DNA of 64,000 nt from Cyanidioschyzon merolae (taxonomy: Eukaryota), in assembly GCA_000091205.1 (NCBI GenBank), contig AP006491.2. One strand, given 5' to 3'. The number at the start of each line of letters is the position of its first letter. Position 1 is the stretch's first letter. Below are positions 36,847-45,712 of the stretch, piece after piece. The notes below the pieces were generated by a model. The model made no database searches. It saw nothing but the letters and a program-made list of their open reading frames with translations, and had not been told where the DNA came from. A program made the position numbers and the translations under genes.

Positions 36847-38149
36847 AGGCGACAGCAGCAGCGTCGTGAAACAATACCGAGAGACGTCCCAGCGGGTATC
36901 AGTTGTTACTCCCCGAAATTACCATAGGAAATATGGCGCTGAAATATGCGGAAAAGAAAGCATCACGGTTGGCGCGACTTTTTCTGTCCGTGCTGACGCC
37001 CTGTTAAGCTTGGATGTTCATCGGAAGGGGCGCTGTGCTCCAGTAGATTCATGTTGCAGCGCTGCGGCTGTTGTATCTCTTTCCGAGAGATAAGATGTGG
37101 AAATTCTCGTTATGTGCCGCTCTTGTGCACTGAACATGCGTCTTGAAACTTGGCAATACATTGCCTTGGCTCGTGGGAGAGTGCATGCATTAGACGCCTT
37201 CAGCCGTGGTCAGTGCATGTCGATGGTGCCGTGGTGACTGGGAGCAATCCGCCATGGTGGCTGATAATTGCGCAAAACCCCGCTCAATACGGAGCAAAAT
37301 ACGTCTGGCGCTCGAATCCGCACCGTCACCACAGATATAGAGCCCGTTGGCAACAAGCGAGTCGCGATTATGTCCCACGTTTGGACTTGGTTGCATCGCG
37401 CCTGCGGTTAATGTGCATGCTTGCAGCTATTGCCGCGTTTGCGCCGGGCATGCGTGCCCGCCTGAGGCTTCCCCTCGTTATGCATTTCCAAAGCGCACTC
37501 GGGATTGCGCAGCTGCTACTTCAAGCACACACGAGCCCGAGGACGGCCGCCGCCATAGCATAGAGAAGTACCGCTGTTCGTGAATGCCGCCAGAGAGGTC
37601 CCCGAATGCAGCCTCTCTTCTGAACGAGGATTACTGTTCGGGAAGTCCAAAAGGATGCTCCTCTTGGGGGCTTGTATCGAGCGTTCGCAAGATTTCTCCT
37701 GACACGCGCTCGGAGGACAGCAATGCAACACCGGCCCGAGTGGTCAGCGATCTTTCAACTCCGGGGGCACTTTCGCTCTACCTACCAAACTGTCGATGGT
37801 CTGGACGCATGAATAAGCTGCTAGATTCCGGACTTTACGACGCAAAACAACAGGTTTGCGTCATGGTACAGAGGTGCGCCCTCGGTAGAGGTGCCTGAAG
37901 GACCCATTCCATGCCAGGCTGAACACCAGAACGATACGGCGCAGAAACAACCATCACGCGTTCAGATGATGCTGGTTAGATTCAGGAAGCCAGAAGTACC
38001 CACATCTGGGAAGCGGCTTGAGCTCCTTTGGACAGAGCTGCGTATGCTTTACTGGCAAGTGGGTCAATTAGAGTCCAGCCGAGCCAGTGACTCTCCAGCA
38101 GGACGTGCACACGATGCTGATTTCCGGTTTGTCGGTACGCGTTACATTC

Positions 38150-40570
38150 AAAGCAGTACGTTCTAGGATATCTTTACAAGCACACCCTCTTTTATTCTCT
38201 TCGCGCAGGTATTCACCAAGAGGAACGTATCTCGTGGATCGGAGAAAGATCGCGGAAATGCTTTATGCTGTGACTGCCAGCTTCCGACACACGGCCTTAC
38301 TTGCTCAAGTCAGTTGTTCTACGGTGAGCTGGTACATGGGCCGCACTCCTCATACTACTTATTCTGCGTTCTGGACATCACGACGGAAACGACCAAACTC
38401 GGTACACAAAATTGTCTCCCAGTCAATCCAATCCACTCCATACGTGCTCTCGGAAACGTTCCTAACGAACCAACAGGATGTGTAGCTTCCGTGCCCTCGA
38501 TACCAATGGCCACCAAGAGACACGGATGGACAGAGCAAAAAGCGCTCTTCTTCGGGAGACCGTCGTGCGTTGAATAACGTGCTACCGATCTCATGCTGTA
38601 ACGCGCACGGTTAGTACAGAACGGGCCGGTCTCCGTTTCACTCGATGAGGTATCATCCGAGCGAAATGGTCGACCTCGATATGGGTGCTCAAACAGCGGA
38701 TCACCGCTGGTCGTAAATATGGCACAGGCGCGTACGGTGACAACATGCGCCTCGCCCCCGGATTCAGTTGGGATCGCCCTCAAATCACCAAACAGACAGG
38801 ATCGTTCAATGGTCCATTTCCTCATCGAAGCGGTTCGTGAGCTCCCAGTACCGAATTCTTCTGCACTGCTCTTCGGCAGTGCCGCTTTTCCATCGGTCAA
38901 ACGCGGTCAGAGCGTATGCAATTGAGATTGGCGTTGAGCTGTCCCTCGTTCCAACTTAGGCTCTTTGGTTGCACCCAGCCGAAGGCGACTTCTGTTTCGT
39001 CAAACGCCGTCTCTACTTTCACGGATCCATAGACGCTTCGTTTGCATCCGCAACACCGTCCTACGACGACTCGTTCTCTTGCTTCACCAGGCCTGAACCG
39101 CACTCCCGCTTCTCCGATCGCGTGTGAAACCAAGGGGGCGGACAGGTGCACTACGGTGCGTGAGCGTGCCCGCGACAGAGCAGGTGAGGAAGAGCGCTCG
39201 AAGACTTGGAGATACATACACAGAAAACGCAAGTCTCAGTGCCGGCGGCCATCCAGTGCCTCTGAACCCCGAGGAAGAAAAGCGGGCATGCGATATAGGG
39301 TCCACGTCTATAGCACCGCGCCAACATTAGGAGATGGAGAAAATTCCGTTGGTTACAGAACAGCAGAATCCGTATGACAAGAGGACCCGGGAGGGCACCA
39401 GGGGGGAATTATCCGAGGGTCAAGATCACACTGAATATCCATTTGCCCACACTTTGTGAAACGGAGGCTTGAATCGAGCAAAGAGGGTGCTTTGCGACAG
39501 TTCAACCGAGAGAAGGAGACAAGCGTCGTGGCGGGTGTGAATCTCCGGTCTATCAACCTCAAGGACATCGCCGTACCTCTGGGTGAAGCGCTCAGACGCT
39601 ACGAAGTGAATGGAAAGCACATGAGGCTGCTCAAGTTTTTCCATGGCTCTGTGTTATCTGGAGTCGGGCGTGATGGACGCCAGGCGGCATGCCAGCGGGT
39701 GGAATAGCGGCGTCAGACCCGATGATGGCGCTCTGAGCACCTGAACGAGTTGAGCGGGATGCGTTGTGCGCGCCACTCACAGAGCGTACAAGAGCGTGTA
39801 TCTGGCTCATGTGGGCTATCCCTGGCAGGTTTCCATGAGACCGCATTGAGATCGCCAACCAGCGCGGTGCGATGAAACCACGAGCGCGCACCAGCTCACT
39901 TCTTCAATGGAGAGCAGAGGGAGATGATCGACAATTCGCGTCGTTTGGCGGTAGCCTGTGGCGCTCGACGCGCAGTGCTGCGCACAGGCTGTACTCCCGT
40001 GCCTTCGACGGCGGCGTGCAACGAGTGCACGAGTCGATTCTGCACTATTGCTGTCAATGCGAACAGGGCGATGTACGCGCATCACAGGCAGGGGTGCACG
40101 CTGGAGCTGGTAGAGAGGAACAGCGTAGAAGCGTGTCGGATGCACGGGCTGGTCAACGGCAAACTGACCGGGCGTCAGTTGACGAGGCCATCGAAGATAG
40201 GAGACTTGCTATGCCGCGGCTCGATCCGCAACAAGTGCACATGCACTTGCTGCACCCAGACCTGAGCGCCTCGATCAACTTACGGAAATGCCGGGAGCGT
40301 TCGGAGCGTCCCGCGGCATTGTGTCGAGCGAACTCTTGAGGGAATCCTTTAGTGCTCAGTGGAGGTATTGTGCTGGGAAGCTGATGCGTTGCAATGAATA
40401 TGAATCGGTGGTCAGGTGGGCGGGCATTGGATATCTGCCCTGGGCGAGTCGCTGGTGTAGCACGGGTCAGCGAACCGGAAAGGCTGGAGCACTACAAAGA
40501 TGTATGTAATGGGAACCTTCTCCTGGGCAATTGGTGAACGATAGAGGTGTTATATCATTGGATACTAGTA
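38150..40570 (+). repeat. Family-A repeat copy A3 (about 2.4 kb), inverted partner of A2
   Basis: See A2. The inner boundary at about 38150 (...CAGTACGTTCTAGGATATC) mirrors A2's 34435. Confidence 0.9.
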
Positions 40571-41349
40571 AGAATACTCGGGATATAACGAGAGCGTTTG
40601 GTAGCATTGCTACAACGCAGGATCGGAGTCCTGGTTATGCATTGAAATATTAAATAACTCTCAGCGGAAACCTCCGAGGGCGTTTTCAAATCAAGAGGGA
40701 AAACGGTTCGCTCGGAGTCTACACCTGTGTGACACTAATACAGAAAACTGAAGAGCTCGCTCTCTTCATGCCTCGAGATTTTCCCGACCTTATTCAGCTG
40801 ACGTCCAATTACAAGGGTTCGTAAAGTAACCGATATCATCATCCTGTTCATACGGCCAGGCCAAGCGTCCACTCGCCTCGTTTTTTTTTCTGTTTAGCAT
40901 GCTCGAATCAAGCAGACTACAAGCTTTCGCTCTTTCTTTTTCAGAGGTAACTCGTGAGCGTAGTGATCTGTGCAACGGGATTGATGAGTAAAAATACTTG
41001 ACGTCGCCCATGCGCGACCTCTTCACAAGCTCATGCCGAAACTTCACTGAATTTCTCCCGTTAAATGATAAATTACGTTCGGATTACAAATTCAGCTCTT
41101 TTTGTGGCCATTTACGAAGCGGTATTCAATTGCTGTTGGATAGCTCTCACGGGATATGCTGCCAGAGGCTCCCGTCTCGTTGGTTTGCAGGGAAAAGAGT
41201 TTCGGACTGGGACTAGAGACATCGCTGCGGTCGCTCCCAGTGTAGGGAGTGTAACGATTTTGTACGACGCGAGCGTAGAACGGATCGAAATCCATCGATT
41301 TCTTCACCACCCTGGATTTTCGTTCCGGAACTTGTTTCAGTACGCAGAA

Positions 41350-41962
41350 AGTAGCGTTCCACAAATCCTCTATCCAATGGAGCAGCATGCGCTTACGTGT
41401 GCTGCGGACGGAGCATTCGCAATGGGAATCGCCCAGAAGAAGCCTTTGATCATGTGATAGGGCAGCAGGCGTCGAAAACAAAGACCGCATCAGGCGGAGC
41501 CTTCTAGACCGGTAAAGGGCGTGTACCGAGCGTTGAAGGAAGCGTTCACGCTTCACAAGGCAACCATCGGAGGAGCAGTAACGGCCGACACGTGGGATCA
41601 CTTCAACTCTGTTAAATGTTACCGCTACGAGGGGCGACTTGGGGCTGCGTTCGAATGTGATGAAAATAGCAAACAGACTGTAGATCGCTTCTTCCGCCTG
41701 TGTATGAAATGCATCACCAGCAGCAGCAAGCAGCAGAGTCGGGACTTGAGTAGCGCCATCCACATCCTTCCCCTGGTGACATCGAAGCTGATGGGAACGG
41801 AGAGACCACCATAGAAATCCGCATATTACAGTGGAAAAGTAAGTAGTGGCAGAACGAGCCTACAAGACTAATGTTGATGATAGCGCGAAGAGACCCAAAC
41901 GTCTGCTCGTACGTTCCTGTTAGCTAGACGGGACTCGTTCCGTTTTAGTGTGACATGGAGCC
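41350..41962 (-). mobile_element. old diverged Family-B left-end fragment (B5), about 75% identical, terminus ...TGACAT at 41962
   Basis: 41380-41530 reverse-complement aligns to B1 10121-10260 (SVHALYRS.RLR.M...). 41860-41962 aligns to the terminal 100 bp of B2 (GATAGCG...AAAG.CC..AA..CGTC...) and ends at the same position as the B terminus. Confidence 0.65.
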
Positions 41963-42281
41963 CATACTTTGCGTGGAGCTCTTGGAGGGATTGGACGTCT
42001 GGCATCCGGCAGGCCGCCGTTTAAGCTACGTGTATGGTTTTGTGCTGAAGTAGACGTGCGACGAGCTGCCTTCGTGTCCACTTGTACACATGCCTTCACT
42101 TGTTGGCGTCTAAGGAGCAAGCGGACGCGCACGGGTCGCGGACGCGAGTTGGCGCCAAACAACTTGAAAGTGTGCTCCTCCTCGTCGAGGTCGACGTTTT
42201 CGCAGCTCACAGAGAAGCGAAAAGTCTTTCCTGCAGAGTTCTCGCCGCTCCCTGATTCGATCTTTTGGGTGGAGCTTCGAC

Positions 42282-44593: not shown

Positions 44594-44989
44594 CTACGTG
44601 CAGGTCGCTACCCCCGTAAAAGTCGAGGTTGTCGTACCACCTGTTCCACAGGTAAAGCGGTACAGCAACCGACCTGCTTCCGCGCACTCGAGCACCAAGT
44701 TTCCATTCCCAGTCGTACCGGACGCACGAAGGAGTTCATTCAGATCAAACCGAGTAGTTTGTGAACGAATAGTCGCCAGGTTTTGGTCGTTCTGTTCCAA
44801 TGCAGACACGTGCGCCCGGAGTTGGGAAACAACAGCCCGCAACTCTGCGTTCTCAGCTGACGCTTTCCGCACAGCAACATCTAAAGAACTAGCCACCGTG
44901 CCAAAGCAGGTCCCGAAAGATCCTACAAAAAGACTTATCCCAATAAGTATGACGAGAGCCTGCCAAGGCTTGAGACTGAAAGTTTGCAT
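44594..44989 (-). CDS. small type-II single-pass membrane protein, novel paralog 1 (132 aa from Met MQTFSLKPW; ORF opens at 45163)
   Basis: A TM helix (ALVILIGISLFVGSFG), a coiled-coil segment, and a C-terminal Cys motif ...ECAEAGRLLYRFTCGTGG...TGVATCT shared with 45278..45712. Confidence 0.45.
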   Translation of the reverse strand: MQTFSLKPWQALVILIGISLFVGSFGTCFGTVASSLDVAVRKASAENAELRAVVSQLRAHVSALEQNDQNLATIRSQTTRFDLNELLRASGTTGNGNLVLECAEAGRLLYRFTCGTGGTTTSTFTGVATCT

Positions 44990-45277
44990 CTTCGAACAAT
45001 ACTTGTCTTTACAAAACAGAGTAGGAAAAAGAATTTTAATGAGATGCAAGCGGCGTAAAGGTGCGTGTTGCGCGCCGTCACGCGGAGCATCCGTTGATCC
45101 CAGTGTCACGAATCGACGACACCAGTGCAACAAACAAGCGACGGCGGCCGGCGGCAACAACACATATCGATGGAAAAATTGCCACTACGTGCTGGAGATC
45201 ACTGGAGGGATCGGATCGCATCGATCGATCCGTGTCTGCTCTGCTCACCATCGCATCTAGCGTTGTTTCTCTCAAAA
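44990..45277. promoter_or_regulatory. 288-bp shared divergent intergenic region between the two paralogous small membrane-protein genes
   Basis: Head-to-head arrangement. Inferred bidirectional promoter. Confidence 0.35.
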
Positions 45278-45712
45278 ATGACGCAACGGAGTTACCACCT
45301 TACGCCAGTATTCGTATGCTGCTTCTGGATTATGGCGTGGTTCGTTTGCATATTTACGTTAGGAGCGGTGGAGGCTTTGGGACGCTTTTCTCTGGGAAGT
45401 ACAAGGGAGGGCGTGCTTGCGGCACTTGTAGAGGACAATATTCGCCTGCGAAATGAAGCACGCATTCTGCTCAACCGCTTGAACCACTTTGAGGCTTCGA
45501 ACAGGCGTCAGATTTTGGTTTCCCACGGCAGCGTGCCAGGAGTCTATCCGTATGGAGGTATTTTCAATACCACCGTGCGTGCGAGCACGGGCAGCGGCGG
45601 AGCGGCGACTTCCGTGATTGAGTGCGCCGCGACCGAGAGAGTCCTGTACCGTTTTTCATGCCCAGCAGACGTTGTAGCCGCCACGACGATGACCGGTGTG
45701 ATTGACTGTTAA
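45278..45712 (+). CDS. small type-II single-pass membrane protein, novel paralog 2 (144 aa from Met MTQRSYHL; ORF opens at 45125)
   Basis: A TM helix (VFVCCFWIMAWFVCIFTLGAV), a coiled-coil segment, and a C-terminus ...ECAATERVLYRFSCPADV...TGVIDC homologous to paralog 1. Confidence 0.45.
   Translation: MTQRSYHLTPVFVCCFWIMAWFVCIFTLGAVEALGRFSLGSTREGVLAALVEDNIRLRNEARILLNRLNHFEASNRRQILVSHGSVPGVYPYGGIFNTTVRASTGSGGAATSVIECAATERVLYRFSCPADVVAATTMTGVIDC

What the first reader, a model, noticed from the sequence alone, without database searches (positions are those of the whole stretch)
44594..45712. Head-to-head pair of novel paralogous small membrane proteins with a conserved Cys-containing C-terminal motif
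Seen in sequence: two divergently transcribed genes of about 132 and 144 aa, 288 bp apart. Each has one N-terminal TM helix and a coiled-coil stretch, and they share a C-terminal block RAS.G.G......ECA...R.LYRF(T/S)C........T.TGV..C. They are clearly homologous yet only about 35% identical. I recognise no known family. A tandem-inverted paralog pair sharing one promoter region suggests co-regulated subunits, for example of a hetero-oligomer of type-II membrane proteins with lumenal or extracellular disulfide-bearing tips.
Basis: seen in the sequence. Interest (0 to 1): 0.5.

Follow-up and report, generated by a model that had tools for sequence, protein, structure and literature searches.

The report
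Diploid-specific pair of small secreted proteins
Two back-to-back genes of the red alga Cyanidioschyzon merolae encode related small exported proteins of an undescribed family; published RNA-seq shows both are switched on together only in the walled diploid stage, so they probably belong to, or help build, its protein-rich cell wall.

Summary
The window is C. merolae 10D chromosome 9. Gene A (44594-44989, minus, 131 aa) is the annotated hypothetical protein CMI166C. Gene B (45278-45712, plus, 144 aa) is missing from the 2007 annotation and, by position, is CMX068C of the 2026 re-annotation. The two are paralogs over the whole mature region (hhalign 98%, E 8e-14). Both are under purifying selection (dN/dS 0.10-0.15). 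The head-to-head pair keeps its place between GT90 and DUF1499 genes in Cyanidioschyzon, Cyanidiococcus, Cyanidium and an unnamed metagenomic lineage. Each protein has a fast-evolving N-terminal hydrophobic targeting segment, a short heptad zipper with a central Asn, a variable linker, and a 44-residue C-terminal domain that is 74-89% identical between genera and carries three invariant cysteines. No Pfam, NCBIfam or PDB relative was found; AlphaFold models were poor. Supplementary tables of Hirooka et al. 2026 show both genes 13- to 190-fold higher in the walled diploid than in the wall-less haploid, in two genera, while flanking genes stay flat. SignalP calls both Cyanidium orthologs secreted. 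Best reading: a co-regulated pair of diploid-specific secretory proteins, probably disulfide-linked dimers tied to the cell wall. Co-regulation is supported; the heterodimer and the type-II membrane topology remain untested.

The parts
44594..44989 (-). Gene A, CDS with stop; identical to C. merolae 10D CMI166C (BAM80047.1, 131 aa, 'hypothetical protein')
   Evidence: P0030 identical; orthologs; dN/dS; diploid-specific expression
44897..44989 (-). A residues 1-31: N-terminal hydrophobic targeting segment (signal peptide or signal anchor)
   Evidence: 7-16% identity from C. merolae to other genera, dN about 1.1-1.5
44798..44872 (-). A residues 40-64: heptad zipper; a/d positions read V A N L V L V L, with Asn47 at a central 'a' position
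   Evidence: AlphaFold puts one long helix over residues 7-78
44597..44728 (-). A residues 88-131: conserved C-terminal domain with Cys102, Cys114, Cys130
   Evidence: 74-89% identity between genera, dN 0.06-0.16; four beta strands predicted at low confidence
44990..45277 (.). 288-bp shared intergenic region, presumed bidirectional promoter plus 5' UTRs
   Evidence: Flanking genes are not co-regulated. Sequence conservation to other genera is only marginal
45278..45712 (+). Gene B, CDS with stop (144 aa); by position it is CMX068C of the 2026 re-annotation; absent from the 2007 annotation
   Evidence: the ATG is conserved in aligned relatives; orthologs; dN/dS; expression
45278..45376 (+). B residues 1-33: N-terminal hydrophobic targeting segment
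   Evidence: 18-26% identity to other genera
45416..45490 (+). B residues 47-71: heptad zipper; a/d positions read L L N L A L L F, with Asn54 at a central 'a' position
   Evidence: helix over residues 9-73 in the model
45578..45709 (+). B residues 101-144: conserved C-terminal domain with Cys116, Cys128, Cys144. An N-x-T sequon (Asn97) lies just upstream
   Evidence: 75-89% identity between genera

Best explanation
CMI166C (A) and CMX068C (B) are an ancient, divergently transcribed paralog pair specific to the Cyanidioschyzon/Cyanidiococcus/Cyanidium lineage. One short shared control region switches both on in the cell-walled diploid phase and keeps both nearly silent in the wall-less haploid, which includes strain 10D.

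Each precursor enters the ER through a poorly conserved N-terminal hydrophobic segment, most likely a cleaved signal peptide. The mature protein of about 100 aa pairs through a short parallel leucine-zipper-like coiled coil with a buried Asn. This presents a highly conserved 44-residue beta-rich C-terminal knob. The knob's three invariant cysteines would give one intrachain disulfide plus one free cysteine for an interchain or matrix link.

The product is proposed to be a disulfide-bonded dimer, A-B more likely than homodimers. It would be deposited in, or help organise, the largely proteinaceous cell wall of the diploid.

Shown: paralogy, conservation, purifying selection, modular constraint, joint diploid-specific expression, and absence of known relatives. 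Inferred: signal-peptide cleavage, dimerisation, the disulfide pattern and the wall location.
For: Identity and annotation: A equals CMI166C exactly. B lies where CMX068C is listed, between CMI166C and CMI167C. The GT90, DUF1499 and MutL neighbours match the table's descriptions.

Expression (Hirooka et al. 2026, PMC13353863, Data Sets S8 and S9):
- CMI166C: about 303 TPM in 2n against 19-37 (MS1 Ha3) and 8-17 (10D); logFC 3.74 and 4.78.
- CMX068C: about 610 TPM in 2n against 14-18 and 4-6; logFC 5.46 and 7.10.
- Cyanidium orthologs g253 and g254: about 770 and 810 TPM in 2n against 3-14; logFC 7.59 and 6.31.
- Flanking genes: |logFC| below 0.75 in both species.

The same paper reports that the diploid is walled and the haploid wall-less, that a large share of secretory-protein genes are phase-specific, and that the Cyanidium-type wall was reported as 50-55% protein.

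Secretory targeting: SignalP-5 calls both Cyanidium orthologs Sec/SPI with 0 TM. Orthologs show n-h-c architecture with C-E-A, V-G-A, G-D-A and A-E-A before the mature part. The N-terminal segment evolves almost neutrally. An N-x-T sequon is conserved in B of three lineages.

Dimer: the a/d heptad pattern with Asn at the same central 'a' position holds in 8 of 9 sequences of both paralogs. From established coiled-coil knowledge (GCN4 Asn16), a buried Asn at 'a' favours parallel, in-register dimers. The only PDB profile hits, all sub-threshold, are coiled coils, mostly bZIP zippers.

Functional core: the C-terminal domain is 74-89% identical between genera while dS is saturated, yet only about 43% identical between the paralogs. 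There are exactly three cysteines per mature protein, all in that domain.

Age: the pair and its synteny are conserved in five lineages. No Galdieria, other eukaryotic or prokaryotic homolog was found among 1.84 billion representative proteins or in GTDB genomes.
Against: - There is no direct localisation or protein-level evidence. The Cyanidiococcus table that holds proteome and H3K27me3 data was cut before these orthologs.
- For the C. merolae proteins themselves the published SignalP run gives no signal peptide, and Phobius gives 1 TM for B. Their hydrophobic cores are 21-26 residues long, which fits a membrane anchor.
- An in-frame upstream ATG at 45170 could add 36 cytosolic residues to B.
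- Both AlphaFold models are poor: pLDDT 64 and 58, with the C-terminal domain mostly below 68. The fold and the cysteine pairing are therefore unknown.
- The heterodimer could not be modelled, and both zippers look equally able to form homodimers.
- The mature proteins hold only 0-3 lysines each, so they are unlikely to be major substrates of lysyl-oxidase cross-linking.
- A 2018 study of Cyanidium culture medium saw only lysyl oxidase as a free extracellular band. That argues, weakly, against a freely soluble secreted form.
Confidence: 0.5

Rival explanations
1. The hydrophobic segment is an uncleaved signal anchor. A and B form a type-II membrane hetero-oligomer, with a zipper stalk holding the cysteine knobs at the outer face of the plasma membrane or in a lumen. 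It would act, for example, as a membrane-to-wall tether or a wall-assembly scaffold of the diploid.
For: Phobius gives 1 TM for CMX068C and SignalP gives no signal peptide for either C. merolae protein. The hydrophobic cores are 21-26 residues in the C. merolae proteins and in Cyanidiococcus B. AlphaFold draws one continuous helix from the hydrophobic segment into the zipper. No small free protein was seen in Cyanidium medium (weak).
Against: Both Cyanidium orthologs are called Sec/SPI with 0 TM. Several orthologs have cores of 16-19 residues followed by small -3/-1 residues. The segment is the least conserved part of both proteins, with dN about equal to dS, which is unusual for an anchor that takes part in oligomer assembly. 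The cytosolic N-terminus would be only 4-13 residues long and is not conserved.
Confidence: 0.25
2. Both are diploid-specific secretory-pathway proteins, but they are not wall components and not obligate partners. They could be separate homodimeric ligands or regulators, acting for example in endospore formation and hatching or in phase maintenance, or they could be lumenal or vacuolar proteins. Their adjacency would then reflect only tandem duplication with a shared promoter.
For: Each paralog's C-terminal domain is conserved in its own version, about 43% identical between paralogs against 74-89% within each. That fits distinct partners as well as a heteromer. Each zipper has favourable g-e' pairs for homodimers on inspection of the register. 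Nothing ties the proteins physically to the wall.
Against: The inverted pair has been kept strictly together, with near-equal high expression of both members in Cyanidium (about 770 against about 810 TPM), and neither has been lost in any lineage sampled. The taxonomic range matches the genera with the protein-rich wall type and excludes Galdieria.
Confidence: 0.2
3. The frames are chance ORFs, or the similarity is a shared low-complexity repeat.
For: None found. B was absent from the older annotations.
Against: Orthologs exist in five lineages with dN/dS 0.10-0.15. The profile-profile comparison gives E 8e-14 over 99 columns. Expression reaches 300-870 TPM in diploids.
Confidence: 0.01

Closest known systems
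Diploid-phase-specific secretory proteins of Cyanidiophyceae (FAS1-domain proteins, lysyl oxidase, TFF-like proteins; Hirooka et al. 2026)
   Same: Same organisms and same expression class: high in the walled diploid and near-silent in the wall-less haploid. They carry a secretory signal, at least in the Cyanidium orthologs. Like lysyl oxidase, they are present in the three Cyanidiaceae genera and not found in Galdieria.
   Different: There is no sequence or domain relationship to FAS1, LOX or TFF. The proteins are much smaller. They form a coiled-coil plus three-cysteine-knob architecture and occur as a fixed head-to-head paralog pair. The paper's text does not mention them.
Parallel dimeric leucine zippers with a buried Asn at an 'a' position (GCN4 / bZIP type)
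   Same: About 3.5 heptads with hydrophobic a/d positions and one central Asn at 'a', in the same register in both paralogs. The only PDB profile hits, all sub-threshold, are coiled coils, mostly such zippers.
   Different: There is no basic DNA-binding region. The proteins are targeted to the secretory pathway. The similarity is a pattern, not homology (best E 0.014-0.3). The oligomeric state is untested.
Extracellular 'coiled-coil neck plus C-terminal globular head' proteins (collectins, tetranectin, type-II C-type lectin receptors) - comparison from general knowledge
   Same: The order of modules matches: targeting or anchor segment, oligomerising helix, then a small disulfide-bearing C-terminal head facing outward.
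   Different: The head is only 44 residues with three cysteines and shows no C-type-lectin or other known domain signal. There is no evidence of sugar binding.
Bacterial GloVer tandem repeat (NCBIfam TIGR03803, 'choice-of-anchor tandem repeat GloVer-containing protein')
   Same: A shared local motif of about 19-21 residues, (A/S)G.ER(V/L)LYRF.GG.DG, within a unit of about 45-50 residues predicted to be beta-rich. Whole-library E-values were 5e-5 to 9e-4. Local hhalign gave 92% over 21 columns.
   Different: The TIGR03803 model itself does not hit A or B at E up to 1. Single repeats score only about 5-16 bits, and the total is inflated because seven near-identical repeats are not independent. 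Global hhalign probability is 19%. GloVer repeats lack the cysteines and the T.TGV..C end and occur as seven or more tandem copies, whereas here there is a single copy.
Divergent gene pairs with a shared promoter that encode partner subunits (e.g. histone H2A-H2B) - comparison from general knowledge
   Same: A head-to-head arrangement with a short shared control region (288 bp) and tightly matched expression, while neighbours differ.
   Different: Physical partnership of A and B is not shown. Promoter sequence conservation beyond close relatives is marginal.

Membership tests
Any Pfam / NCBIfam family or solved structure | A significant profile match over the protein or its C-terminal domain | tested here: not met
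   Pfam gave 0 families for both proteins and for all nine C-terminal domains, even at E up to 10. NCBIfam gave only E about 0.1 coiled-coil noise. PDB profile searches gave best E 0.014 (coiled coil) and 0.02 (repeat-inflated). Foldseek against the PDB gave best E 0.56, on a low-confidence model.
GloVer repeat proteins (TIGR03803) | A match to the 50-position repeat model above its cut-off (44 bits), in tandem copies | tested here: not met
   There was no TIGR03803 hit for A, B or their relatives at E up to 1, while the control GloVer proteins scored 167-303 bits with 7 repeats. Only a motif of 19-21 residues aligns. The domain occurs as a single copy.
Cleaved-signal-peptide secretory proteins | An N-terminal n-h-c signal with a cleavage site, predicted by a dedicated tool | tested here: inconclusive
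   No predictor was available here. The published SignalP-5 and Phobius columns give Sec/SPI with 0 TM for both Cyanidium orthologs. For C. merolae they give no signal peptide, with 0 TM (A) and 1 TM (B). Apolar runs are 16-26 residues, with small -3/-1 residues in most orthologs.
Type-II (signal-anchor) single-pass membrane proteins | An uncleaved hydrophobic span of about 20 or more residues, with the N-terminus cytosolic and the C-terminus outside | tested here: inconclusive
   Span length is adequate in the C. merolae proteins at 21-26 residues, and shorter, at 16-19, in several orthologs. The segment evolves neutrally. Cleavage cannot be tested with these tools.
Parallel dimeric coiled coil (leucine-zipper type) | A heptad repeat with apolar a/d positions and a buried Asn at 'a' that sets a dimeric, in-register pairing | tested here: met
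   The sequence pattern is met in all nine sequences for a/d. Asn sits at the central 'a' in 8 of 9, with Arg in Cyanidium A. A helix is predicted. The actual oligomeric state is not testable here.
Diploid-predominant genes of Cyanidiophyceae (criteria of Hirooka et al. 2026: FDR < 0.01, log2CPM > 2, log2FC(2n/n) > 2) | RNA-seq values that meet those three thresholds | tested here: met
   These values were read from the published tables. CMI166C: logFC 3.74 and 4.78, logCPM 5.8, FDR below 1e-200. CMX068C: logFC 5.46 and 7.10, logCPM 6.9, FDR 0. Cyanidium g253 and g254: logFC 7.59 and 6.31, logCPM 7.3-7.4, FDR 0. The criteria are quoted.
Cell-wall structural proteins | Physical presence in the isolated wall or extracellular matrix | not testable with these tools
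   Only correlative evidence exists: the walled-phase expression and the secretory signal. The Cyanidiococcus proteome table is not held for these orthologs.

The most novel reading that the evidence does not exclude
The 44-residue three-cysteine C-terminal domain is a new extracellular fold unit related to single blades or subdomains of repeat lectin-like proteins, such as bacterial GloVer repeats or beta-trefoil subdomains. Brought together by the zipper and by interchain disulfides, A and B knobs would assemble into a closed multi-chain beta structure. That structure would cross-link the cellulose-free, protein-rich and reportedly proton-tight wall of Cyanidiaceae. The pair would then be a key structural element of acid resistance in the diploid.
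Probability: 0.07. Interest if true: 0.65.

Novelty: new member of a known kind. Interest (0 to 1): 0.38.

Why it matters
The wall of Cyanidioschyzon, Cyanidiococcus and Cyanidium lacks cellulose and was reported as about half protein. It is thought to protect cells at pH 0-2, yet its components are almost unknown beyond FAS1, lysyl oxidase and TFF-like candidates.

This pair adds a lineage-restricted and highly expressed candidate. It is strictly diploid-specific and conserved across all three genera, and its domain has not been described. It sits in organisms where gene targeting and controlled haploid-diploid switching are now available.

The 288-bp divergent control region is a compact candidate diploid-specific bidirectional promoter, which could be useful as a phase reporter or expression tool.

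The case also shows that phase-specific small genes were missed by the older annotations. B is missing or truncated in four public assemblies.

Tried and rejected
- **Structure prediction.** AlphaFold2 was run on A with a 6-sequence alignment and on B with a 9-sequence alignment. Mean pLDDT was 63.7 and 58.2, and the C-terminal domain was not trustworthy. Cysteine pairing and fold were therefore left open.
- **Fold search.** Foldseek against the PDB found nothing below E 0.5. The afdb50 library was unavailable.
- **Wider homolog searches.** The GTDB genome scan found no relatives. The metagenome scan found only loci identical to C. merolae.
- **GloVer repeat lead.** Rejected as membership. The match is motif-level only and is inflated by repeats.
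- **MITSUBA-1 beta-trefoil hit.** It scored 4.9 bits per repeat and was rejected.
- **Promoter motif CGCATCG(A).** It is shared by all six intergenic regions. It is not enriched in the window, with 4 found against 4.3 expected. Shared k-mers between C. merolae and other genera are only marginally above shuffles. It is not claimed as a regulatory element.
- **H3K27me3.** The supplement of Mikulski et al. 2017 has no entry for CMI165-167.
- **Ribo-seq.** The supplement of that paper is not held.
- **Cyanidiococcus data.** The proteome and ChIP table is cut before the orthologs, in both the paper and the preprint.
- **Literature.** A full-text search for 'CMI166C' returned 0 papers.
- **Mating-type region.** It lies elsewhere, between CMK076C and CMK078C, so the pair is not mating-type linked.
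- **RNA genes and repeats.** No tRNA, Rfam or tandem-repeat feature touches the locus.
Full report
**What is at the coordinates.** The minus-strand frame running 44989 to 44597 (stop at 44594-44596) encodes 131 aa, called gene A here. The plus-strand frame 45278-45709 (stop at 45710-45712) encodes 144 aa, called gene B. The two start codons face away from each other across 288 bp. BLASTP of A against B gives 43% identity over the last 49 residues, E 3e-9. Within the 64-kb window each C-terminal domain finds only the other one.

**Which organism and which genes.** Neighbouring ORFs are typical eukaryotic genes: PFK, FtsH, MutL, RHD3/Sey1, GT90 and DUF1499. Gene A is identical over its full length to CMI166C of Cyanidioschyzon merolae 10D (BAM80047.1, 'hypothetical protein'). 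The window is therefore chromosome 9 of that red alga. Gene B has no NCBI-sourced member in its 90% cluster. It is also uncalled in both GenBank assemblies of Cyanidiococcus yangmingshanensis although the ORF is intact there, and it is truncated to 102 aa in the Cyanidium caldarium annotation. The 2026 re-annotation of 10D added 219 genes. Its table lists a gene without a GenBank accession, CMX068C, exactly between CMI166C and CMI167C. Its Cyanidium counterpart sits between the A ortholog and the DUF1499 gene, which is where B lies in locus L005. B is therefore assigned to CMX068C by position.

**The genes are real and the pair is old.**
- Orthologs of both genes occur head-to-head between the GT90 and DUF1499 genes in four further lineages. 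These are an unnamed lineage from a JGI metagenome (L001), a Logan assembly (L004), Cyanidiococcus (L002, L003) and Cyanidium caldarium (L005).
- Where synonymous sites are not saturated, dN/dS is 0.10-0.15 for both genes.
- A profile of the A orthologs aligns with a profile of the B orthologs over 99 columns, the whole mature region, at 98.1% probability and E 7.8e-14. The similarity is homology, not low complexity, and the duplication predates the split of the three genera.
- An exhaustive HMM search of 1.84 billion representative proteins found only these proteins, one A-like gene on a roughly 70%-GC contig of unknown origin (P0011, L007), coiled-coil noise, and weak hits to repeat proteins.
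- An index search of 5.8 billion proteins with the family profile returned nine clusters, all of them family members.
- GTDB genomes and JGI metagenomes added nothing new. No Galdieria homolog was detected.

**Anatomy.** Conservation is strongly modular.
- The N-terminal hydrophobic segment is 7-38% identical between lineages, with dN about equal to dS.
- The helix plus linker is intermediate, at 18-71% identity.
- The last 44 residues are 74-89% identical between genera, with dN 0.06-0.23 while dS is saturated.
- The helical part carries about 3.5 heptads with apolar a/d positions: V A N L V L V in A and L L N L A L L F in B. An Asn sits at the same central 'a' position in 8 of 9 sequences. 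From established coiled-coil knowledge, a buried Asn at 'a' (GCN4 Asn16) favours parallel, in-register dimers. The only PDB profile hits, all below threshold, are coiled coils, mostly bZIP zippers.
- Each mature protein has exactly three cysteines, all invariant and all in the C-terminal domain. Lysines are very few, at 0-3. B carries a conserved N-x-T sequon in three lineages.
- The C-terminal domain has no Pfam, NCBIfam or PDB relative.
- AlphaFold2 predicts one long helix and three to four strands, but at low confidence (pLDDT 64 and 58). Foldseek found nothing.

**Signal peptide or membrane anchor.** Most orthologs show a charged n-region, an apolar core of 16-19 residues and small residues at -3/-1 before the mature part, for example VCEA|S, SVGA|R, AGDA|M and AEA|L. 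The SignalP-5 column of the published tables calls both Cyanidium orthologs Sec/SPI with 0 TM. For the C. merolae proteins it gives no signal peptide, and Phobius gives 0 TM for A and 1 TM for B. Their apolar runs are longer, at 21-26 residues. In either case the conserved end lies outside the cytoplasm. Near-neutral evolution of the segment favours a pure targeting role, and I regard cleavage as the more likely outcome without claiming it is settled. In C. merolae an in-frame ATG at 45170 could extend B by 36 residues. That extension is not conserved in frame or in start codon in relatives, whereas the ATG at 45278 is.

**Expression is the decisive external evidence.** Hirooka et al. 2026 (Plant Cell, PMC13353863) showed that 10D is a wall-less haploid and that Cyanidioschyzon, Cyanidiococcus and Cyanidium also have a walled diploid phase. 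Their Data Sets S8 and S9 give the following.

| Gene | TPM in 2n | TPM in n | log2FC (2n/n) |
|---|---|---|---|
| CMI166C (A) | 301 / 299 / 309 | 25 / 19 / 37 (MS1 Ha3); 7.5 / 13 / 17 (10D) | 3.74; 4.78 |
| CMX068C (B) | 631 / 564 / 637 | 18 / 18 / 14 (MS1 Ha3); 4 / 5 / 6 (10D) | 5.46; 7.10 |
| CMI165C (flanking) | 94-105 | 71-75 | 0.73; 0.71 |
| CMI167C (flanking) | 34-39 | 29-67 | -0.55; +0.44 |
| Cyanidium g253 (A ortholog) | 773 / 750 / 776 | 7.6 / 4.8 / 2.9 | 7.59 |
| Cyanidium g254 (B ortholog) | 746 / 820 / 872 | 14 / 11 / 13 | 6.31 |
| Cyanidium g252 and g255 (flanking) | 43-46; 137-142 | 43-49; 195-207 | 0.23; -0.23 |

Both genes meet the paper's criteria for diploid-predominant genes. 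The paper's text does not mention these genes. The candidate mating-type region lies elsewhere, between CMK076C and CMK078C.

**Most likely function.** The paper notes that these algae lack cellulose synthases and that the Cyanidium-type wall was reported as 50-55% protein. It also notes that many secretory-protein genes are diploid-specific, including FAS1, lysyl oxidase and TFF-like genes. A and B fit that class. They are highly expressed only in the walled phase, they are targeted to the secretory pathway, and they are restricted to the three genera that share this wall type. I therefore propose secreted or surface-retained zipper dimers with disulfide-stabilised C-terminal knobs that are part of, or organise, the diploid wall. 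The odd number of cysteines points to one interchain or matrix disulfide. An A-B heterodimer is attractive for three reasons:
- The pair is never separated.
- Both members are expressed at similar levels.
- Each knob is conserved in its own version.

These steps are inference. Homodimers and a membrane-anchored form remain open. The near-absence of lysine argues against the proteins being substrates of lysyl-oxidase cross-linking. A 2018 study saw only lysyl oxidase free in Cyanidium medium, which weakly favours wall- or membrane-bound forms.

**Leads that did not hold.**
- The family profile hit bacterial GloVer-repeat proteins at E 5e-5 to 9e-4. The match is a motif of 19-21 residues, ER(V/L)LYRF.GG.DG, scoring 5-16 bits per repeat and summed over seven near-identical repeats. 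The TIGR03803 model does not hit A or B, and global hhalign probability is 19%. A similar repeat-inflated hit to the designed beta-trefoil MITSUBA-1 is meaningless on its own. Both targets are four-stranded repeat units of about 45-50 residues. I keep this only as the basis of the low-probability 'novel case'.
- A CGCATCG(A) element occurs in all six intergenic regions. It is not enriched in the window, and intergenic conservation between C. merolae and other genera is marginal.

**Verdict.** Both genes are now annotated, as hypothetical proteins, and their phase-specific expression sits in a supplementary table. The family, its architecture and the conserved divergent pair have not been described. 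I rate it as a new member of a known kind, namely phase-specific secretory proteins of Cyanidiophyceae. Interest is moderate, mainly for specialists in red-algal cell walls and life cycles.

Noticed in passing
window 45278-45712; L002 5285-5719 (-); L005 6220-6660 (-): Gene B was missed or truncated by several public annotations. It is absent from the 2007 C. merolae 10D gene set. It is uncalled in both Cyanidiococcus GenBank assemblies despite an intact ORF. In Cyanidium caldarium it is annotated as a 102-aa fragment without its signal segment (CDCA01G0218). It appears as CMX068C only in the 2026 re-annotation.
   Followed up: yes
L007 1-1479 (Logan SRR31152685): An A-like family member (P0011) lies on a roughly 70%-GC contig of an unidentified organism, so the family extends beyond the named genera. 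About 480-530 nt upstream is a run of GATCCGC/GATTCGC heptamers (L007 308-352). A divergent ORF starts at the contig edge.
   Followed up: partly
window 45170-45277: An in-frame upstream ATG at 45170 would give a 180-aa form of B with a 36-residue N-terminal extension, as in some automatic gene calls (P0019, P0023, P0026). The extension is not conserved in frame or in start codon in relatives. Whether it lies inside the mRNA is unknown.
   Followed up: partly
window 36847-42281: There are 5.4 kb between the CTLH/RING gene and the GT90 gene (CMI165C) with no ORF that hits Pfam and no internal repeats, in an otherwise compact genome. The same interval is about 1.1-1.4 kb in L001 and L002.
   Followed up: partly
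window 44990-45277 and the homologous intergenic regions of L001, L002, L004, L005, L007: The heptamer CGCATCG (often CGCATCGA) occurs in all six intergenic or upstream regions. L001 and Cyanidiococcus share long conserved blocks, for example GTGACGCATCGACG. The motif is not enriched in the window, and conservation between C. merolae and the other genera is marginal.
   Followed up: yes
L005 13334-14435: In Cyanidium caldarium, two tandem fasciclin (FAS1) genes lie about 6 kb from the A/B pair, beyond PFK. The 2026 paper describes FAS1 genes as diploid-specific and wall-related. None of the window ORFs scanned on the far side of PFK (20.5-27.3 kb) matched FAS1.
   Followed up: partly
L006 1-1410 (Logan SRR29604929): A 1.4-kb contig identical to the window starts 33 nt upstream of B's ATG and runs through the convergent DUF1499 gene. 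The two CDSs are only 19 bp apart. If the run is RNA-seq, this would mark B's 5' end and overlapping 3' UTRs. The type of run could not be checked.
   Followed up: no
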